Origin: a virus
Taxonomy: Duplodnaviria; Caudoviricetes
Strand: one strand, 5' to 3'
Virus record (IMG/VR): IMGVR_UViG_3300017913_001781
Location: 32,001-96,000 of that record
Length of the DNA stretch: 64,000 nt
In this document: positions 49,101 through 61,024 of the stretch, piece after piece
Layout of the letters: every line of letters begins with the position of its first letter
Position numbering within the stretch: position 1 is the first letter of the stretch
Notes under the pieces: generated by a model
Seen by the model: only the letters and a program-made list of their open reading frames with translations
Database searches by the model: none
Told to the model about the DNA's origin: nothing
Translations under genes and position numbers: made by a program

Positions 49101-49137
49101 AAAGGCAGTGAAACTTTCGCTGCCTTTTTCATATAAA
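49101..49137 (+). terminator. Terminator hairpin overlapping a TGAAAC-N17-TATAAA promoter
   Basis: aaaggcag-tgaaactttcg-ctgcctttttc then atataaa. Confidence 0.7.
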
Positions 49138-49151
49138 TAAAAAGTTATGAT

Positions 49152-49451
49152 ATGGCCAATAATATACTAGACCAAGCAAATAAGATTATCAACGAACGAT
49201 CAGAAGAGAAAGAACGCCAATATGGACCTTTCGAAGAAGGCATGCGTCGAGCTGCCATGATTTGTTCAGGAATGACAGGTAAAGAGTGGAATGGCTCTGA
49301 TATGTACGCTGCTCTTGTTGCACTTAAGCTTAGCAGACACTCTTATAACTATAAAGAAGACAACCTTCTTGATGCTGTAGCGTATCTCGGTGCTCTTAAC
49401 AATTATGTTGAAAAGCACGGCTATGGCGAATCAGAAGATCCAATTAAATAA
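49152..49451 (+). CDS. DUF6378-like nucleotide-modification-associated protein
   Basis: 'ILDQANKII...RQYG...ALKLSR...EDNLLDAVAY'. Confidence 0.7.
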   Translation: MANNILDQANKIINERSEEKERQYGPFEEGMRRAAMICSGMTGKEWNGSDMYAALVALKLSRHSYNYKEDNLLDAVAYLGALNNYVEKHGYGESEDPIK

Positions 49452-49453
49452 GT

Positions 49454-50527
49454 ATGAGTGAACTAAAGTACCTATCGGATTATATTGGCGATAAGTCGTC
49501 TCGTATTGGTATTGTAGCTCTTGTCGGTAAGTTAAGTCCTAAGATTAGCTCACATAAATCAGGCTGGGCATATCACTTGGCAAATCAATGCGTAAACGCA
49601 GGTTATGAGAACGTTGATGTAATCACAGATACCAATATAGATTGGTCAGATTACGACGCAATTCTACTAGAACATGGTATGGAATTTAAAGGCACCTTCA
49701 ATATTTTTGGCGGTGCTAATGACGATTTGTATCATCAAATTATGCGCATCTTTAGCTCTACTGAGTTGTACAGTTTACACCATGATATGCCATGTATTGG
49801 TACTTTAATTGAGCAGCGTCTTCATACTGGTACAGATCTATTCAAGACGCTTGAAGACAAGATCGAAGATATTAAACGAATCTGTGAAAATGAGATTCCA
49901 AGAATTGACTGTATTGAAAAGACAGACAAGCTTTGTTTTGGAGATAGTCATTCGTTTAGCCAATACACTCCAGGTTACATGACTCAGCGTCACGATGGTT
50001 TAACTATGCATGGCGCTCTTAAGCGAGGGTTGGACACATATGTTTATCCATGGATCAAGTCACTTCGAGTTTATTTAGGTAATATTGATGTTCGTCATCA
50101 TTTAATGAGACAGGATAATCCTTCGGCTTCTGTTAAGACACTGTTGAAGAACTATGAGAGTGAATTACTAAAGCTTCAAGAAAATGGAGTTGAAGAGATT
50201 GAAGTAGTTCATGTTTTACCTATTGAACATGAAAGCCGACCATTGCCGAAGACCGGTTACTACAAAGATACACCATTCTTTGGTACATGGGCTGAACGCA
50301 CAAGTCTTACTAAAGAGATTAATTCGGGCATTGATGAAATGTGTGCGCGTAACAATTGGAATGTTTACAAACACCCTGACGTTTACTTTAATGGAGATGG
50401 AGAATTGACATTTGACGTAATGGAAAAACCTAAGTCAGTTCATATCGCTAGAGAGTATTATCGTTGGGATTTAGTTGAAAACTGTCCTAATAAAAAACTA
50501 ATTAAACAAACTATGTCATTATTCTAA
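49454..50527 (+). CDS. Protein with C-terminal SGNH/GDSL-like hydrolase/acyltransferase domain
   Basis: 'CFGDSHS', 'G.TMHG', 'LGNIDVRHH', 'SVH' correspond to blocks I, II, III and V. Confidence 0.6.
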   Translation: MSELKYLSDYIGDKSSRIGIVALVGKLSPKISSHKSGWAYHLANQCVNAGYENVDVITDTNIDWSDYDAILLEHGMEFKGTFNIFGGANDDLYHQIMRIFSSTELYSLHHDMPCIGTLIEQRLHTGTDLFKTLEDKIEDIKRICENEIPRIDCIEKTDKLCFGDSHSFSQYTPGYMTQRHDGLTMHGALKRGLDTYVYPWIKSLRVYLGNIDVRHHLMRQDNPSASVKTLLKNYESELLKLQENGVEEIEVVHVLPIEHESRPLPKTGYYKDTPFFGTWAERTSLTKEINSGIDEMCARNNWNVYKHPDVYFNGDGELTFDVMEKPKSVHIAREYYRWDLVENCPNKKLIKQTMSLF

Positions 50528-51753
50528 TGGAGATTACAACAACCAAATATTATGACGAGTTTATTAGGTACTTTAACTTAGCTCTTGATCAGCAACAGAA
50601 AAGCAATCTAGGTCATACACCTCACCAAGATTCAGATATGAACGATCCATTGATGGAGCAGATTGAGCTCTATGATGTGGTCGAACGTAAGTTTGCTGGC
50701 TTTAGTCAAATTGTAAACGATGTATTTTATGGCTGGACAGAGGACCATCCATATTGGTCTAGAATGGAAGAAGGGTTAGTGACTTCTCAAAGACTTGAGG
50801 TTGCTAAGAACTGGACAGGCAAGCAAGATGTATTTGGACTTGAAGAGTGGCTGTATGTTTTTATTCTACACAGAGTCTGTGGATCTGCAATTAATTATGC
50901 TACTAAGCCAAGTGGTTACCATAACACTATCCTATTTGATCTGTGGCAATCTGATACTATTGAACAGATGTGTGAGCAAGTTAAATCTCGTACGACTCCA
51001 TTCTATACGTCAGTAGGTTATCAATTTCCAGCTTTTCCAAAGCCACCTCAACCAGAAGTTCAAGAGAATGTTTTTGTAGGCATGTCTGGTTTTGAAGCAC
51101 CTAAGTTTACATATAAAAGAGGTGGCGATTACTTCTTATGCGAGTTTGCTCCGCGATTAGCCCGCGATATGGCCAACTATTTGAGAAAGGGGCCAAAGAA
51201 AGACTTACGAGAATTAGGAGAGTGGATGTTTAAGTGGAACACTGATAATGGTTTAAGAGCTTATCGATTCCAATATGCAGCTGTGATTGCCGATGTTTGT
51301 GATTGGTTCCCAGAGTTTATGAATCGCGAGTCTATGTTTTATTATGGTACCAATGCGGTTGAATGTATCGGTTATTTGGCCGACACTAAAGACGGTAAAG
51401 GTAAGAAGTCTGAGCCATTCTTGGACGCAGTGATGACTAAGATATACGAAGAGACTGGTTCGTTACCCTATAATGCAGAAGATGTAGCATGTGACTTTAT
51501 TCGTTGGATAGAAAACTACATGAGACCGGGCGCTGATTACAATCACATCAATATGGATACTCTGTGGAATAGTTCTACTATATTGGATCACCCATACGGC
51601 CGACAAAAGGCTATGCTTGATTTAGGATTGGTCGAAACATTCAATGGTATGACTCACCACCCCTCGGATGATAAGATTATCTCAGAAGCTGGCTTGACGG
51701 TAGAACAATATAAAAACAAAGTCAAAAAACTATACGAATGTCAAACAGCGTAA
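50527..51753 (+). CDS. aGPT-Pplase / amino acid:DNA transferase-like protein (HhH-glycosylase fold), copy 1
   Basis: 'FILHRVCGS', 'FQYAAVIADV', 'YGTNA', 'NAEDVACDFIRW'. Confidence 0.6.
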   Translation: MEITTTKYYDEFIRYFNLALDQQQKSNLGHTPHQDSDMNDPLMEQIELYDVVERKFAGFSQIVNDVFYGWTEDHPYWSRMEEGLVTSQRLEVAKNWTGKQDVFGLEEWLYVFILHRVCGSAINYATKPSGYHNTILFDLWQSDTIEQMCEQVKSRTTPFYTSVGYQFPAFPKPPQPEVQENVFVGMSGFEAPKFTYKRGGDYFLCEFAPRLARDMANYLRKGPKKDLRELGEWMFKWNTDNGLRAYRFQYAAVIADVCDWFPEFMNRESMFYYGTNAVECIGYLADTKDGKGKKSEPFLDAVMTKIYEETGSLPYNAEDVACDFIRWIENYMRPGADYNHINMDTLWNSSTILDHPYGRQKAMLDLGLVETFNGMTHHPSDDKIISEAGLTVEQYKNKVKKLYECQTA

Positions 51754-52826
51754 AAGAAAAAGAAACTATTATTATGCCTTTGTTTGACGAGGAAGGTATC
51801 AACGTATTTCCAACTAATAATATTAAGTATCCTAAAACGGTTGAAGTGCCTTTAAAAAATGGCAAGCCTAAAGAATCTTGGATGCAAAAATGGAGCGAAG
51901 AAGAAAGAATAGAAAAGTTCTTTGAGTTTTGTCGAGTCTTTGACTTGAGAGAAGACGAGCTATTGAGAACAGATTACCAAATCTTCTCGCATCGTTTACA
52001 TTGGCACGAGCACTCTTACTGTGATTTTATGAAGAAGATCACTGATAATAAAGAGAGGTTATGGTACACTCTTGTCTTCTCATTTACAAACGAACATTGG
52101 AAGACTTTAACTACTCTTGTTGATAAGGGTGAAGAGGCTCTTGCTGAACGTTTTAAGAATCACAGGCACGCTCGTAATGACCTATTTCAGATATACTATC
52201 CAAAAGGAACAAACGTTAAGGAGTGGATCTTAGAAGGTCCAAAGAAGGCGGCTGAAGATATGTGTCATGTCTTAGAGAATCTCGATCGACCATATACGAT
52301 GATGGAGTTTGCTAAGATTATGGAAAAGTACTTTAAAGAAAAGCAAGACTTTAGAAGTCCTTTATATCCATGTAAGAATACTGCCAGATATTTGGCTATG
52401 ACTTGGCCAGAATTGGTTGACCCTAACTCAGTTTTGTTTGGTGGAACTGGTCACTTTGACGGCTTACATCAGATTTTTGGAGGTCAATATCTTAATGGTA
52501 AAGTTAAGTATTCTATTGATGCTGATGGTCAATTTGTTTGTGAGAATAAGCATGCTGAAGAATGGATTAGACAGATGGAAGTTTTAGCCCAACATCCTTC
52601 TAATCCTATTAGTGAGCAAATGTGGTTGAACTTAGAAGACAAAACTTGTTTCTTCTATAAACATATTGCTATTAGCCATGGTATCAAGTCAGCAACTAAG
52701 AGAATTCCATATAATTGGATTTTTGATTCTCAGTTTGATTTGGCCAAACACCCAAGCAATAGCGTGCAGCTTAACTCCAACACAACAAAATATTTATGGG
52801 CTAAAGATTACCCAGAAGAATTATAA
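51738..52826 (+). CDS. aGPT-Pplase / amino acid:DNA transferase-like protein, copy 2 (diverged paralogue)
   Basis: 'FFEFCRVFDLRED', 'FGGTG..DGL..IF', 'NLEDKTCFFYK' parallel copy 1. Confidence 0.5.
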   Translation: MSNSVKEKETIIMPLFDEEGINVFPTNNIKYPKTVEVPLKNGKPKESWMQKWSEEERIEKFFEFCRVFDLREDELLRTDYQIFSHRLHWHEHSYCDFMKKITDNKERLWYTLVFSFTNEHWKTLTTLVDKGEEALAERFKNHRHARNDLFQIYYPKGTNVKEWILEGPKKAAEDMCHVLENLDRPYTMMEFAKIMEKYFKEKQDFRSPLYPCKNTARYLAMTWPELVDPNSVLFGGTGHFDGLHQIFGGQYLNGKVKYSIDADGQFVCENKHAEEWIRQMEVLAQHPSNPISEQMWLNLEDKTCFFYKHIAISHGIKSATKRIPYNWIFDSQFDLAKHPSNSVQLNSNTTKYLWAKDYPEEL

Positions 52827-52827
52827 C

Positions 52828-53712
52828 ATGTCACATAATAAACATACCGATCAATTAATTAATCAAGACTTAAATCTAATGATGCCTAATAGACAGGCGT
52901 GGTTGGATTTAGCTGGTGATTGGAAGGATCCCTTTGAAGCTCCTGAGATTCACGAGCACATGGGCTTTAATGTAGTTAGAGAAGACCTAATGGGCTTTGG
53001 ATCTAAGTGTAGATTCGGAGACATTTTGGTTAGCACATGTGAGAAAGACACTTTAGTCTATGTTCAACCTCGATATGGCTTTGCAGGTATCTCACTAGCA
53101 TATTTAGCTAAAAAGTACAATAAGAAGTTGGTTTTGTTTAGTCCAAGCCAAAAAGAGATTTCAGATCACCAAGCTATTTGTGTAGAACGAGGGGCTGAGA
53201 TGAAGTTTAGAAGAGTTGCAGCTATGCCTAACCTAAATCGTATTGCAAAAGCATGGGCTGAAGATAATAACGCATTCTTTATTCCATTGGGTTTGAAGCA
53301 TGAACTTGTAACAGCTGCAGCTGTAAAGGTAGCATATGACCTAGCAGAAAAACATGGTTATCCAGAAGAAGTATGGTCAGCTATATCAACTGGCGTTTTG
53401 CAACGTTCATTGCAAATTGCATGGCCAGACGCCAAATTTAATGCAGTTGCAGTAGCTCGCAATATTCAAACAGGCGAAAGAGGCAAAGCTACAATATGGT
53501 CACACCCCAAGGCATTTAACCAAAATGTAAATGTTGAATATTATCCTCCATTCCCATCAGCTCTTAACTACGACGCTAAAGCTTGGGAATTTATGGTTAA
53601 GCATGGCAGCCCTGGTGCTTGGTTTTGGAATGTCGGCGGTGACCCTAAACCAGAACAAGAAGAAACTAAAAAGAAAGTCGACTCACAAAGAGAGTGGGGA
53701 GAAGTTCGTTGA
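52828..53712 (+). CDS. PLP-dependent enzyme (fold type II; TrpB/ACC-deaminase-like)
   Basis: 'VVREDL..GSKCR' (PLP lysine), 'GFAGISLAYLA', 'WSAISTG', 'YDAKAW', 'FWNVG'; true start ATG 52828. Confidence 0.8.
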   Translation: MSHNKHTDQLINQDLNLMMPNRQAWLDLAGDWKDPFEAPEIHEHMGFNVVREDLMGFGSKCRFGDILVSTCEKDTLVYVQPRYGFAGISLAYLAKKYNKKLVLFSPSQKEISDHQAICVERGAEMKFRRVAAMPNLNRIAKAWAEDNNAFFIPLGLKHELVTAAAVKVAYDLAEKHGYPEEVWSAISTGVLQRSLQIAWPDAKFNAVAVARNIQTGERGKATIWSHPKAFNQNVNVEYYPPFPSALNYDAKAWEFMVKHGSPGAWFWNVGGDPKPEQEETKKKVDSQREWGEVR

Positions 53713-53738
53713 AACTTTAACACATAAACCAATAAAAA
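53710..53738 (+). promoter_or_regulatory. Putative middle promoter TGAAAC-N17-TAAAAA
   Basis: Same motif as 35617, 49109 and 59021. Confidence 0.55.
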
Positions 53739-53742
53739 AATC

Positions 53743-54207
53743 ATGGCAAACTCAGATAATAAATGTGCAGATCTAGAAGTACAAGACTTCTACACTGACG
53801 TAAAAGACACGCTCGGCCTTGTATATAACAAACAGATCGAGCTACAAAGCAGACTCGGATTTAACTTCGAGAATTGGACCCTTAAAGAAATTGCAGATTT
53901 CTGGTGTGTTAACAAACATGCTATGAGCGATGAACTTAACGAAATGTTCGATGCTCTTGGTGGAGTTAATGATGGTATTGCTTCAGCAGCATGGAAATAC
54001 TGGAAAAAAGACAATGCTAAAGCGGCTACTATGACAGTAGCTGACCTTTCTAAAGAAGATCGCCTCGAACTATTTTACGAGTGGATCGATGGTCTTCACT
54101 TCTACATGAATTTTGCTATTTCAATTGGCATGACAGCAGAAGATATAGTAAACCTCTACATGGCTAAGAACGCAGAGAATCACGATCGCCAAAACCGAGG
54201 ATACTAA
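53743..54207 (+). CDS. Dimeric all-alpha dUTPase/dCTPase (T4 gp56-like)
   Basis: 'DELNEM', 'WKYWK', 'EWIDGLHF', 'YMAKNAENHDRQNRGY'. Confidence 0.85.
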   Translation: MANSDNKCADLEVQDFYTDVKDTLGLVYNKQIELQSRLGFNFENWTLKEIADFWCVNKHAMSDELNEMFDALGGVNDGIASAAWKYWKKDNAKAATMTVADLSKEDRLELFYEWIDGLHFYMNFAISIGMTAEDIVNLYMAKNAENHDRQNRGY

Positions 54208-55634
54208 TGCTACTTGATATTGAACAAAGAGAAAATGAGCTTATTGTAAGCTACTATAATCGAGAAGGTAAAGTTGATTTCAAGAGATATCCTATTTCTC
54301 AATTTGAGAATTGGGTTGTCACAGATGAAAAAGATCGCTACAAGCATCCACAGATCCTAAATTGGGATGGTCGACCTGTTAAAAAGAATCGTTCACGTTC
54401 TTATAATAAGTTTTCACTGATCTACTTTATGGATAATCTTCCAGAAAAGGATCGAGAAGAAATCTTTGAGTTTAATGTACCTCGTACTTATTATGTAGAT
54501 ATTGAGACTGAGATTGTAGATGGTTTTCCTAAACCAGAGGAAGCTAAATCTAGGATCCTCACGTTCTCTATAATCACACCCGAAAGAAAGGCTATTGTAC
54601 TAGGTCTAGAAGATCTTTCGGCTGAACAGATTGCTTCTATTGAGAAGGACACTAACGATCACTTTGAAGGTTATGATCAAGATTGGGAGTTTAGCTATTA
54701 TAAGTTTAAGAATGAGTACGAGATGCTCTATAACTTCTTGCATAAGTTCTTGCCTAAGTTTCCTATGATGACAGGCTGGAACTTCATCAACTATGACTGG
54801 CAATATATCGTTAATCGATGTAAGCATTTGCAAATCGATTTGACTGAAGTAGCTATCACCGGTTCGCTTGATCGTAATGATAGTCGACCACTTCATATGG
54901 GTATTCTAGACTATATGCAATTATACGATAAGTATGATCGCTCGGTTAAAGTAAAAGAGTCTAATACACTTGATTATGTTTCTGGTCAAGTTCTTAATGT
55001 TAAGAAGATTAAGTATCAGGGTGGTCTACAAGATCTATACGAGAATGACTTTAAGAAATATGTTTTCTATAACGTAGTTGACTCTATTCTTGTTTATTAT
55101 ATTGATGAGAAGCTAAAAAGCATGGAGGTCTTGTTAACGCTTGCTACTATTACAAAAATGCCTCTTTATAAAGCAGCTTCTCCTGTGGCTATGACAGAAG
55201 CTTTGATTGCTCGTAAATTGGTTGAGCAAAATAAACGAGTTGGCGTTGAATACGATAAAGCAGATAGTCAAAAAGACGGTAAGTATGCTGGCGCATTTGT
55301 TAAAGAGCCTATTTCTGGTTATTATAGCGGAGTTAGTGCTTTTGACTTCGCCTCACTGTATCCCTCTATTATGAGACAGTTTAATATTTCACCTGACTCA
55401 TATGTCGAAATGATACCTACTACACAGATAAATAGTCGTCGAAAGGATGAAAGTGTCATTGTGTGCGAAAACGGAGTTGTTTATGAAAAAGAAGACTCAA
55501 TTCTGAAGAAGATTCTCTCTGATCTTTATGCTCAACGTAAACAATATAAGAAAACTTCGTACGATTATTATGAAAAGGCAAGAGAGCTGAAAAAAAAATT
55601 AAATGAGAAAAAAGTCGGAGAGTCAGCTGCCTAA
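54207..55634 (+). CDS. Family B DNA polymerase, N-terminal subunit (3'-5' exonuclease and motif A)
   Basis: ExoI 'DIETE', ExoII 'GWNFINYDW', ExoIII 'YNVVD', motif A 'FDFASLYPSIM'; ends in the fingers helix. Confidence 0.93.
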   Translation: MLLDIEQRENELIVSYYNREGKVDFKRYPISQFENWVVTDEKDRYKHPQILNWDGRPVKKNRSRSYNKFSLIYFMDNLPEKDREEIFEFNVPRTYYVDIETEIVDGFPKPEEAKSRILTFSIITPERKAIVLGLEDLSAEQIASIEKDTNDHFEGYDQDWEFSYYKFKNEYEMLYNFLHKFLPKFPMMTGWNFINYDWQYIVNRCKHLQIDLTEVAITGSLDRNDSRPLHMGILDYMQLYDKYDRSVKVKESNTLDYVSGQVLNVKKIKYQGGLQDLYENDFKKYVFYNVVDSILVYYIDEKLKSMEVLLTLATITKMPLYKAASPVAMTEALIARKLVEQNKRVGVEYDKADSQKDGKYAGAFVKEPISGYYSGVSAFDFASLYPSIMRQFNISPDSYVEMIPTTQINSRRKDESVIVCENGVVYEKEDSILKKILSDLYAQRKQYKKTSYDYYEKARELKKKLNEKKVGESAA

Positions 55635-59818: not shown

Positions 59819-61024
59819 ATGAATGTAGAACTACTAGAAGAAAAAGCGATTGAAGAGCTTTCTCCTGATGAGGGGAAAGCTCTCGTCGCACATTATGAGC
59901 AGCTAGCTGCTAAATATACGGCATATGAACAGGCTGTAAAACTTTCTTTGAATAGTATTTATGGAGCATTTGGTAATAAATGGTTTCACTTCTTTGATAT
60001 TAATATCGCAGAATCCATTACTTTACAAGGTCAAAATGCAATTCTTTATTCTGAAACTATACTCAATAAGTATTTTCACGATTTCTTTTATAAAGATAAA
60101 CCAGTACACGATCACTTAAACATAAGCGTTAGATATAAATTGGAAAGACCTTCAGTTATCTACATTGATACTGATTCGTGTTATGTCCAATTTGAAGAAA
60201 TGTATAATTCAATTGATTGGCACGGAGATAAGCTTACAATTGATGAGTTTATTTTAGAAATATATGATTTTAGACTTAGGGATTACATCGTTAAGTGTAT
60301 GGAAAAATACGCTAAGCTAAGAAATACTGATAATTTTCTTGCATTTGAATTAGAGACTATTGCTTACAATGGTATTTGGATGAGTAAGAAGAAGTACATT
60401 CAAAACATTGCATGGGACGATAAGCTTGAAACAACAGATCGACATCCTTCTCTTAAAAAGGTCAAAACAATCGGTTTTGATACTATTCAATCGTCAACTC
60501 CTAAGTTTGCTCGTGAAAAGTTGGTTGAAGCACTTAAGATTCTATTTAAGAAACAAGATAAGCCTTCGCCAGAAGATCTACAGGAGTTGGTTCAATTCAT
60601 GAAAGAAACCAAAAAGCAATTTAAGCTTTGTAATGTCGATGATATTTCATTCAATAAAAGAACTAACAATATTGACAAGTATATCGTTGATGATCAAATC
60701 GAGCTTCAGTTTGGCCTAAAGTGTCCGCCAAACGTAAAAGCTGCAGGTTACTACAACTATTTGCTTAATCAAAATAAAAAGTACAAGAATAAGTATCGCT
60801 TGATTGGTAATGGTGAAAAACTTAAGATTTATCACTGTGCTGATACAGCATTGAGCGATATGTTCTCATATTTACCGGGAGATTATCCTTATGAGTTTGC
60901 TCCACCTGTTGATTACGATGTGCAATTTGAAAAGTGCATGATTGATCCACTTAATAGAGTACTTAAGGCTATTGGTCTTCAAAAATTGGACACTAACCTA
61001 ATTTACGCAACAGCACTATTTTAA
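59819..61024 (+). CDS. Family B DNA polymerase, C-terminal subunit (motifs B and C, thumb)
   Basis: 'KLSLNSIYGAFGN', 'ITLQGQ', 'YIDTDS', 'KKKY', 'SSTP'; C-terminal clamp-binding-like 'ALF'. Confidence 0.93.
   Translation: MNVELLEEKAIEELSPDEGKALVAHYEQLAAKYTAYEQAVKLSLNSIYGAFGNKWFHFFDINIAESITLQGQNAILYSETILNKYFHDFFYKDKPVHDHLNISVRYKLERPSVIYIDTDSCYVQFEEMYNSIDWHGDKLTIDEFILEIYDFRLRDYIVKCMEKYAKLRNTDNFLAFELETIAYNGIWMSKKKYIQNIAWDDKLETTDRHPSLKKVKTIGFDTIQSSTPKFAREKLVEALKILFKKQDKPSPEDLQELVQFMKETKKQFKLCNVDDISFNKRTNNIDKYIVDDQIELQFGLKCPPNVKAAGYYNYLLNQNKKYKNKYRLIGNGEKLKIYHCADTALSDMFSYLPGDYPYEFAPPVDYDVQFEKCMIDPLNRVLKAIGLQKLDTNLIYATALF

What the first reader, a model, noticed from the sequence alone, without database searches (positions are those of the whole stretch)
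49152..54207. DNA base hypermodification operon with an unusual enzyme set
Seen: tightly coupled operon under one TGAAAC promoter: DUF6378-like, SGNH-domain protein, two paralogous proteins sharing an 'N[AL]ED..C.F.[RK]' helix, a fold-type II PLP enzyme, a dUTPase/dCTPase, then the DNA polymerase. Known: thymidine hypermodification in ViI/M6/phiW-14-type phages uses aGPT-Pplase (amino acid:DNA transferase) plus a PLP enzyme acting on phosphorylated 5hmdU. Inference: two transferases plus an SGNH acyl-enzyme suggest a different, possibly undescribed modified base or two context-specific modifications that block restriction. The expected hydroxymethylase and kinase are not visible in this window.
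Basis: partly seen in the sequence, partly recalled or inferred. Interest (0 to 1): 0.8.

Follow-up and report, generated by a model that had tools for sequence, protein, structure and literature searches.

The report
Kinase-less cytosine DNA hypermodification operon
An uncultured marine T4-like phage has, just upstream of its DNA polymerase, two distant relatives of the enzymes that attach amino acids to thymine in other phages' DNA, and here they probably decorate hydroxymethylcytosine, giving a DNA base that I did not find described.

Summary

**What the operon holds**
- Both unannotated proteins (408 and 362 aa) fold like helix-hairpin-helix glycosylases. Their best solved match is the PaMx11 amino acid:DNA transferase (Z 9.6 and 9.3).
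- Both keep its Glu-x-x-x-Cys catalytic motif as invariant residues.
- They are remote paralogues (hhalign E 1e-5).
- The PLP enzyme is a homologue of the M6 gp52 DNA-amino-acid decarboxylase (96%).

- The "dUTPase" is an orthologue of T4 gp56 dCTPase.
- A complete 256-kb relative has a normal ThyA plus a gp42-type dCMP hydroxymethylase. The target is therefore most likely 5-hydroxymethylcytosine, not 5hmdU.
- No DNA kinase was found.
- The SGNH-like protein accompanies the first transferase in 77 of 77 related loci and is fused to it in seven other protein clusters. It probably takes the kinase's place.
- The second transferase is optional (33 of 61 loci).
- The SGNH fold rests on motifs only.

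**Status**
The chemistry is inferred, not shown. This scan reached the same reading before on other genomes. The papers I searched describe no such base.

The parts
49105..49139 (+). Terminator-like hairpin (GGCAGTGAAA..TTTCGCTGCC plus T5) overlapping a promoter-like motif, TGAAAC-N17-TATAAATA.
   Evidence: Hairpin energy is -17.3 kcal/mol. The bipartite motif occurs 11 times in the record against 1.7 in shuffles.
49152..49451 (+). DUF6378 protein of 99 aa, role unknown. It is present in 70 of 77 related loci.
   Evidence: Pfam PF19905, 2.1e-10. Co-occurrence.
49454..50527 (+). P0001, 357 aa, with SGNH-like motifs (G163-D-S165-H-S, G209-N-I-D212, S328-V-H330). It is the constant partner of P0002 and a candidate activating enzyme standing in for the DNA kinase.
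   Evidence: phrog_13881, 2e-61. Invariant residues. Found upstream of P0002 in 77 of 77 loci. Fused to a P0002-like domain in 7 cluster representatives. No Pfam or PDB profile hit.
50527..51753 (+). P0002, 408 aa, the amino acid:DNA transferase-like core transferase. Its invariant residues are E318, C322, G119, S120, G130 and N133; D319 is nearly invariant.
   Evidence: AF2 model pLDDT 92.8. In a PDB-wide search the top match is 8z2m (PUGT), Z 9.6. BFVD top hit is named 'Amino acid:DNA transferase domain', 56% identity. Invariant residues.
51738..52826 (+). P0003, 362 aa, the second and optional transferase-like paralogue. It keeps E300-D301-K-T-C304.
   Evidence: AF2 model pLDDT 84. 8z2m scores Z 9.3 against 7.1 for the next match. 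BFVD top hit has 52% identity and is named as an AADT domain. hhalign to the P0002 family gives E 1.3e-5. Present in 33 of 61 loci.
52828..53712 (+). Fold-type II PLP enzyme of 294 aa, a homologue of the M6 gp52 decarboxylase. The Schiff-base lysine is K60.
   Evidence: Pfam PALP 2.2e-5, which is below the cut-off. phrog_7093, 4e-39. hhalign to the gp52 family gives 96.4%, E 1.2e-9. The lysine aligns with the CysK PLP-lysine. Present in 61 of 61 loci.
53710..53737 (+). Second TGAAAC-N-TAAAA promoter-like site, 33 nt before the gp56-like gene.
53743..54207 (+). Orthologue of T4 gp56 dCTPase/dUTPase, 154 aa.
   Evidence: tblastn to T4 gene 56: 33% identity over 97% of the query, E 4e-17, with up to 39% identity to other T-even-type phages. 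Pfam dUTPase_2, 3e-8.
54207..55634 (+). N-terminal part of a split family B DNA polymerase (context; its start overlaps the gp56-like stop).
   Evidence: Pfam DNA_pol_B_exo1 and DNA_pol_B. phrog_2062, 5e-82.

Best explanation
The operon is a post-replicative DNA base hypermodification cassette of the amino acid:DNA transferase (AADT) plus PLP-decarboxylase type. It is attached to a T4-style hydroxymethylcytosine pathway rather than to 5hmdU.

Proposed steps:
1. The gp56 orthologue removes dCTP. A gp42-type dCMP hydroxymethylase supplies 5hm-dCTP, which the split PolB incorporates. That hydroxymethylase is seen in relatives; here it would lie outside this 41%-complete fragment. This step is inferred.
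2. On DNA, P0001 prepares the 5-CH2OH group. It has an SGNH-like Ser165/His330 set and stands where the DNA kinase does in known systems. One possibility is O-acylation, which would give a leaving group. This step is speculative.
3. P0002 attacks C6 with Cys322, helped by Glu318 and Asp319. It expels the leaving group and lets an amino acid add to the exocyclic methylene. This is inferred by homology to PaMx11 gp46 and M6 gp51.
4. The gp52-like PLP enzyme (Lys60) decarboxylates the DNA-bound amino acid to an amine. That requires a free alpha-amine, so the linkage must be through a side chain, such as O-seryl. This is by homology.
5. P0003 is a second, optional transferase with an intact Glu/Asp/Cys motif. 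It adds a second kind of adduct or serves another sequence context. This is inferred.

The likely result is a decorated cytosine that blocks host nucleases.
For: **Fold**
- In PDB-wide searches both models match PUGT (8z2m) best. P0002 scores Z 9.6 over 212 aa. P0003 scores Z 9.3 over 228 aa, against 7.1 for the next match.
- The best viral-model hits, at 52-56% identity, are named 'Amino acid:DNA transferase domain' proteins.

**Catalytic motif**
- PUGT uses Glu243, Thr244 and Cys247 (PMC11472151). Mutating the Cys or the Glu to alanine abolishes activity in M6 gp51 and ViI gp247 (PMC8989533).
- E318-D-V-A-C322 in P0002 and E300-D-K-T-C304 in P0003 are invariant in their families.
- By the aligned ranges they fall within about 6-10 residues of position 247.

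**PLP enzyme.** hhalign to the M6 gp52 family gives 96.4%, E 1.2e-9.

**Cytosine track**
- The gp56 orthologue sits in the operon.
- G001 is a 100%-complete relative of 256,444 b. It has a canonical ThyA plus a thymidylate-synthase homologue with L143D, C146, D169 and N177D. The criteria come from PMC13326640.

**Gene linkage**
- Among related loci P0001 is present in 77/77, the PLP enzyme in 61/61 and gp56 in 47/52.
- P0001::P0002 fusions occur in 7 cluster representatives.
- Variable extra genes sit inside the cassette in relatives: GT2 plus UDP-galactopyranose mutase, LOG, CitG-like and an FkbM methyltransferase.
Against: - No nucleoside chemistry was measured.
- Pfam ADDT and HMUDK_hel do not match either protein. 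Only 1 of 44 P0002-family members reaches ADDT, at E 1e-3, and none of the 30 P0003-family members does.
- hhalign against an M6-gp51-only profile fails.
- For P0002 the DUF2419 match (Z 8.7) is within 1 of the PUGT match.
- The equivalence of the Cys residues rests on motif and aligned ranges, not on a residue-level superposition.
- The gp42-like gene is not in this record, which is a fragment; its neighbours in G001 are absent too.
- The fold and activity of P0001 are untested.
- The kinase search was one protein query and is not exhaustive.
Confidence: 0.58

Rival explanations
1. The cassette hypermodifies thymidine: a dUMP hydroxymethylase and a 5hmdU DNA kinase lie elsewhere in the unsampled 59% of the genome, and the transferases act on phosphorylated 5hmdU as in ViI and M6.
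For: The homologues whose activity has been shown (M6 gp51, ViI gp247, PaMx11 gp46, PhiW-14 gp109) all act on 5hmdU-derived DNA (PMC8989533). The record is only 41% complete.
Against: The complete relative G001 has a canonical ThyA. Its only other thymidylate-synthase homologue has Asp at position 177, as T4 gp42 does, whereas the SP10, SPO1 and M6 dUMP hydroxymethylases have Asn. The gp56 dCTPase orthologue is in the operon. No M6-gp54-like kinase was found in G000, G001 or G002.
Confidence: 0.12
2. The cassette works on free nucleotides before replication rather than on DNA. The HhH-like proteins and the PLP enzyme would build a modified dNMP/dNTP, and the two all-alpha pyrophosphatases (DUF6378, gp56) and LOG-type enzymes would manage the pool.
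For: The operon is bracketed by nucleotide-pool proteins and abuts the polymerase and RNR genes. A LOG-family gene is inserted in relative L120. DUF2419, which acts on a mononucleotide, is the second-best fold match of P0002, at Z 8.7.
Against: The closest solved structure binds dsDNA with a flipped base (PMC11472151). M6 gp52 acts on DNA-bound amino acids (PMC8989533). No nucleotide kinase or transferase is specific to the cassette.
Confidence: 0.12
3. The two HhH-fold proteins are glycosylase-type enzymes (base excision or base exchange, repair or anti-defence) and do not transfer amino acids. The PLP enzyme has an unrelated metabolic role.
For: AGOG, OGG, AlkA and EndoIII glycosylases score Z 5-8 against both models. 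There is no Pfam ADDT hit.
Against: The invariant Glu-x-x-x-Cys motif matches the AADT active site and is not part of the HhH-glycosylase catalytic signature as I recall it (established knowledge, not tested here). The gp52-like PLP enzyme is strictly linked (61/61 loci). PUGT ranks first for both proteins.
Confidence: 0.08

Closest known systems
Thymidine hypermodification pathways of Pseudomonas phage M6 and Salmonella phage ViI (5-HMUDK kinase; AADT gp51/gp247, the aGPT-Pplase clade 2; PLP decarboxylase gp52/gp226)
   Same: An HhH-fold transferase with a Glu-x-x-x-Cys motif sits next to a gp52-type fold-II PLP enzyme. The transferase genes often occur as a paralogous pair. The cluster lies among replication and nucleotide genes.
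   Different: There is no P-loop DNA kinase and no dUMP hydroxymethylase. It is paired with gp56 dCTPase and, in relatives, a dCMP-type hydroxymethylase plus ThyA. An SGNH-like protein is the constant partner. The sequences lie outside Pfam ADDT and HMUDK_hel.
PaMx11 gp46 PUGT, 5-PmdU glycinyltransferase (PDB 8z2m)
   Same: It is the best solved structural match of both P0002 (Z 9.6) and P0003 (Z 9.3). The metal-binding and nucleophile motif E243-T244-x-x-C247 corresponds to E-D-x-x-C here.
   Different: Identity is only 7-10%. Our proteins are 70-120 residues longer. The substrate base and the donor are unknown.
T4 hydroxymethylcytosine system (gp42, gp56, gp1, alpha/beta-glucosyltransferases)
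   Same: A gp56 orthologue lies in the operon, a gp42-type enzyme occurs in relatives, and the backbone is T4-like.
   Different: In this window the operon holds no glucosyltransferase, and transferase and PLP enzymes stand in its place. Some relatives add a GT2 plus UDP-galactopyranose mutase inside the cassette.
TET/C5-methyltransferase phage clusters with a P-loop kinase and aG/PT-PPlase (PMC8256090)
   Same: That paper already raised the idea that Pplase-type enzymes could act on 5hmC.
   Different: In those clusters 5hmC is made after replication by TET, and a kinase is present. Here 5hmC is pre-replicative, as in T4, and no kinase was found.

Membership tests
Amino acid:DNA transferase (Pfam PF18724 ADDT; aGPT-Pplase clade 2) | Match to the Pfam family model above its gathering score. 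| tested here: not met
   P0002 and P0003 give no hit even at E 10. The six-frame search of the record finds none. Among family members, 1 of 44 in the P0002 family reaches E 1e-3, below the cut-off, and 0 of 30 in the P0003 family.
Amino acid:DNA transferase (Pfam PF18724 ADDT; aGPT-Pplase clade 2) | HhH-glycosylase-like two-bundle fold, closest to PUGT. | tested here: met
   8z2m ranks first in PDB-wide searches: Z 9.6, rmsd 4.0, 212 aa for P0002; Z 9.3, rmsd 4.2, 228 aa for P0003. For P0002 the DUF2419 match at Z 8.7 is within 1.
Amino acid:DNA transferase (Pfam PF18724 ADDT; aGPT-Pplase clade 2) | Essential Cys with a Glu four residues before it (PUGT E243/C247). | tested here: inconclusive
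   E318/C322 and E300/C304 are invariant. They lie in a helix near the equivalent position, judged from the aligned ranges. No residue-level superposition was available, and hhalign to the M6 gp51 family did not align them.
Amino acid:DNA transferase (Pfam PF18724 ADDT; aGPT-Pplase clade 2) | Works with a 5-hmdU DNA kinase (P-loop; HMUDK_hel). | tested here: inconclusive
   PF18723 gives no match in the record. M6 gp54 gives no match in G000, the complete G001 or G002. That was one query only, so a divergent kinase is not excluded.
Amino acid:DNA transferase (Pfam PF18724 ADDT; aGPT-Pplase clade 2) | Substrate supplied by a dUMP hydroxymethylase (Asn at ThyA position 177). | tested here: not met
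   The non-canonical thymidylate-synthase homologue of relatives G001 and G002 has Asp at position 177, Asp at 143 and Asp kept at 169, like T4/T6 gp42. The record itself holds no thymidylate-synthase gene.
M6 gp52 / ViI gp226-type PLP decarboxylase of DNA-bound amino acids | Homology to gp52 and a fold-II PLP lysine. | tested here: met
   hhalign gives 96.4%, E 1.2e-9 over 183 columns. GSK60CR aligns with the PLP-lysine of cysteine synthase. Pfam PALP scores 24.4 bits, below its cut-off of 35.
T4 gp56 dCTPase/dUTPase | Full-length similarity to T4 gene 56. | tested here: met
   33% identity over 97% of the query to T4 gene 56, E 4e-17, and up to 39% to other Tevenvirinae. Pfam dUTPase_2, 3e-8.
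SGNH/GDSL hydrolase | Family profile match, or the SGNH fold with Ser-Gly-Asn-His blocks. | tested here: inconclusive
   No Pfam, NCBIfam or PDB-profile hit. GDSHS, GNID and SVH are invariant. A protein-language-model neighbour with GDSL domains scores 0.91, which is a lead only.

The most novel reading that the evidence does not exclude
A widespread marine phage pathway turns T4-type 5-hydroxymethylcytosine into an amino-acid-derived aminoalkyl cytosine without a DNA kinase. An SGNH-like enzyme, sometimes fused to the transferase, would activate the hydroxymethyl group by a different leaving-group chemistry. In the two-transferase form found in this window, the DNA would carry two distinct adducts.
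Probability: 0.3. Interest if true: 0.85.

Novelty: new variant of a known kind. Interest (0 to 1): 0.72.

Why it matters
Known amino-acid-type DNA hypermodifications are all on thymine and all start with a DNA kinase. A cytosine version with a different activating enzyme would add a new modified base and new enzyme chemistry on DNA.

It would bear on how abundant marine T4-like phages escape restriction and CRISPR. The searches returned 922 related proteins for P0002 and 588 or more IMG/VR stretches.

It might also explain what the gp42-positive, glucosyltransferase-less Aeromonas phages 31, 44RR and 25 do with their hmC. These phages can be grown, so the idea is directly testable.

Tried and rejected
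**Searches that found nothing**
- megablast of the operon against cultured phages, and tblastn of P0002.
- Pfam and NCBIfam on P0001, P0002 and P0003.
- Sequence and profile searches of the PDB for P0002, P0003, P0001 and DUF6378.

**Comparisons that were not significant**
- hhalign and hmmsearch with an M6-gp51-only profile. They aligned a different helix, so I do not use them.
- hhalign of both families to M6 gp55.
- hhalign of the P0002 family to the C-part of Aeromonas ORF233c. That C-part is therefore only weakly tied to the superfamily, by HMUDK_hel at E 0.0036.

**Other checks**
- TATAAATA alone is not enriched: 11 found against 12 expected. I rejected it as evidence of a T4 late promoter.
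- The 5-hydroxycytosine (RB69-type) reading of the thymidylate-synthase homologue was considered and rejected. Position 169 is Asp, not Asn (criterion from PMC13326640).
- The atlas search of the P0001 N-domain gave nothing.
- hhalign of the P0001 family to T4 beta-glucosyltransferase gave E 0.0054 at 6.7% probability. It is a lead only.


Full report
**Setting.** The window is bases 32001-96000 of a 122,950-b IMG/VR virus record that CheckV rates 41% complete. GC content is about 36% and nearly all genes are on one strand. Earlier notes and my own hits place it among uncultured marine T4-like jumbo phages.

**The observation.**
- The PLP gene most likely starts at the ATG at 52828, one base after the stop of P0003, not at the upstream TTG.
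- The shared motif is real: NAEDVACDFIR in P0002 and NLEDKTCFFYK in P0003.
- BLASTP does not see the two as related (E 0.56). A profile-profile comparison of their families does: 80%, E 1.3e-5 over 129 columns that include the motif and the preceding 'VDP.S..[YF]GG[TN]' block.
- The bipartite motif TGAAAC-N15-19-TAWAA is enriched, at 11 copies against 1.7 in dinucleotide shuffles.
- It precedes the operon at 49109. A second copy lies at 53710, before the gp56-like gene.
- The upstream TGAAAC is also part of a strong hairpin followed by T5.

**The two unannotated proteins.**
- Neither matches any Pfam, NCBIfam or PDB sequence.
- Both have many homologues in metagenomes: 922 proteins for P0002 and 397 for P0003.
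- AlphaFold models built on family alignments are confident. P0003 has pLDDT 84 and pTM 0.83. P0002 has pLDDT 92.8 and pTM 0.90.
- In searches of about 48,000 PDB representatives that do not rely on Foldseek, both find the PaMx11 gp46 5-PmdU glycinyltransferase (8z2m) first. P0002 scores Z 9.6, rmsd 4.0 over 212 residues, with DUF2419 next at 8.7. P0003 scores Z 9.3, rmsd 4.2 over 228 residues, with the next match at 7.1.
- The remaining matches are HhH DNA glycosylases: AGOG, OGG, AlkA and EndoIII.
- Against viral predicted structures the top hits, at 56% and 52% identity, are proteins that UniProt names 'Amino acid:DNA transferase domain-containing'. They are followed by Pplase1 and 5-hmdU DNA kinase helical-domain proteins.

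**Active site.**
- In PUGT, Glu243 and Thr244 hold the metal and Cys247 clamps the flipped base and is the proposed nucleophile (PMC11472151).
- Alanine substitution of the Cys or the Glu abolishes activity in M6 gp51 and ViI gp247 (PMC8989533).
- P0002 has E318-D319-V-A-C322, and E318 and C322 are invariant across 44 relatives down to 22% identity.
- P0003 has E300-D301-K-T-C304, invariant in 30 relatives.
- By the aligned ranges, these cysteines fall within about 6-10 residues of PUGT position 247.
- I could not obtain a residue-level superposition. A profile built only from M6-gp51-like sequences did not align this helix. I therefore treat the equivalence as likely, not shown.

**The PLP enzyme.**
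- It is a weak PALP match.
- Its family aligns with the M6 gp52 family at 96.4% probability, E 1.2e-9 over 183 columns. gp52 is the characterised decarboxylase of DNA-bound C-alpha-glycinylthymine (PMC8989533).
- Lys60 in GSKCR aligns with the PLP-lysine of cysteine synthases.

**Which base.**
- The 154-aa 'dUTPase' is an orthologue of T4 gp56 dCTPase/dUTPase: 33% identity over 97% of the query to T4 gene 56, E 4e-17.
- The record itself has no thymidylate-synthase family gene, but it is a fragment. The neighbours of the relevant gene in relatives are missing from it too.
- G001 is a relative of 256,444 b with terminal repeats, rated 100% complete, and it carries the same operon. It has a canonical ThyA and a second, divergent thymidylate-synthase homologue. 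G002 has both as well.
- Aligned with T6 and Aeromonas gp42, the SP10, SPO1 and M6 dUMP hydroxymethylases and a canonical ThyA, the divergent protein shows four features. It has Asp at ThyA position 177 (cytosine specificity) and Asp at 143 (hydroxymethylase type). It keeps Cys146. It has Asp at 169, so it is not the RB69-type 5-hydroxycytosine synthase (criteria from PMC13326640).
- A phage that makes its own dTMP, removes dCTP and makes hm-dCMP has thymine and hydroxymethylcytosine in its DNA. The transferases therefore most probably act on 5hmC.

**The missing kinase and P0001.**
- No HMUDK_hel or ADDT Pfam match and no M6-gp54-like kinase was found in the record, in G001 or in G002. This test is limited.
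- P0001 is present upstream of the P0002 homologue in 77 of 77 related IMG/VR loci with room to see it.
- Seven 50%-cluster representatives of 639-790 residues are fusions of a P0001-like N-half (BLASTP 1e-38 to 1e-79) and a P0002-like C-half (1e-19 to 1e-48). This mirrors the kinase::helical-domain fusion of SP10.
- The invariant residues of P0001 include GDSHS, R-x-DG-x-T, GNID-x-RHH, LPIE-x-x-R and ME-x-x-x-SVH. These resemble SGNH blocks I, II, III and V.
- Its N-domain shares a 'DYD..[IL][IL]....N.FGG' stretch with the T4 beta-glucosyltransferase N-domain, at hhalign E 0.0054 but only 6.7% probability. This is a lead.
- I propose that P0001 replaces the kinase as the enzyme that activates the hydroxymethyl group. 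That step is speculative.

**Conservation and variation.** The table counts the 80 IMG/VR loci with a P0002 homologue of 68-95% identity.

| Gene | Present in loci with room to see it |
|---|---|
| P0001 | 77/77 |
| DUF6378 | 70/77 |
| PLP enzyme | 61/61 |
| P0003 | 33/61 |
| gp56 | 47/52 |
| PolB N-part | 48/52 |

- The two-transferase layout of this window is thus one of two common forms.
- Relatives insert other enzymes in the cassette:
  - a GT2 glycosyltransferase plus UDP-galactopyranose mutase (G001);
  - a LOG-family protein (L120);
  - a CitG-like protein (L078);
  - an FkbM methyltransferase (L054).
- A freshwater relative has an NAD epimerase after the PLP gene.
- Such turnover is what one expects of an anti-restriction modification locus.

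**Cultured handles.**
- P0001 homologues occur in 38 Aeromonas T4-like phage records, of the 31/44RR and 25 types.
- In phage 31, P0001 is the N-part of the 795-aa ORF233c. The C-part of that protein has only a weak HMUDK_hel hit (E 0.0036) and no significant hhalign match to the P0002 family.
- These are the phages long noted to have genes 42 and 56 but no glucosyltransferase (PMC2993671).
- The gene next to ORF233c encodes a sodium:solute symporter (7e-53).

**Comparison with the literature and the scan.**
- The papers I searched describe the AADT and PLP chemistry only on thymine (PMC8989533, PMC11472151, PMC13458397).
- One paper suggested that a kinase plus Pplase might act on TET-made 5hmC (PMC8256090).
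- I found no paper describing an amino-acid-type cytosine modification or a kinase-less version.
- Notes of this scan on other genomes give the same 'kinase-less hydroxymethylcytosine cassette' reading. I had reached it independently, and I tested its main claims here.

**Verdict.** This is a new variant of a known kind of system. It rests on fold, motif, profile and gene-linkage evidence, with no chemistry yet.

Noticed in passing
L141:4366-8346 (Aeromonas phage 31, NC_007022 160183-164163): ORF233c (795 aa) carries the P0001-like domain at its N-end and a weak HMUDK_hel-like C-part. The adjacent ORF234c is a sodium:solute symporter (SSF, 7e-53), an unusual phage gene that might import the donor molecule.
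   Followed up: partly
L001:5894-8316 (Erythrobacter phage R6L gp1) and L002:5378-7696 (Microcystis phage Mae-JY30): The closest cultured-phage homologues of the PLP enzyme (34-35% identity) are annotated as a DNA methylase. In R6L the PLP domain is fused behind an N6/N4 DNA methylase domain. In Mae-JY30 it follows two genes annotated ParB/sulfiredoxin, the second of which matches Pfam N6_N4_Mtase.
   Followed up: partly
L115:11143-13423, L120:10371-11048, L078:7191-7988, L054:10597-11178, L106:5575-6695: Relatives carry variable inserts inside the cassette: GT2 plus UDP-galactopyranose mutase, a LOG-family protein, a CitG-like protein, an FkbM methyltransferase, and a DAHP-synthase-family protein followed by a 149-aa gene that looks NUDIX-like by eye.
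   Followed up: partly
whole record; window 35617, 49109, 53710, 59021: The promoter-like bipartite motif TGAAAC-N15-19-TA[TA]AA occurs 11 times against 1.7 in shuffles. Seven copies lie 33-80 nt upstream of gene starts.
   Followed up: partly
window 54207-55634 and 59819-61024: The family B DNA polymerase is split into two genes, with nrdB, nrdA and small genes between them. The same split is seen in relatives.
   Followed up: no
L133 and L134 (G001 ends, 6-524 and 255882-256442): The canonical ThyA gene of the complete relative G001 appears as two matches, one at each end of the record: the N-part of the profile at one end and the C-part at the other.
   Followed up: no
window 49634-49789 (P0001 residues 61-112): The invariant 'FN.FGG' stretch of the P0001 N-domain aligns with 'INFFGG' of the T4 beta-glucosyltransferase N-domain (hhalign E 0.0054, probability 6.7%).
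   Followed up: partly
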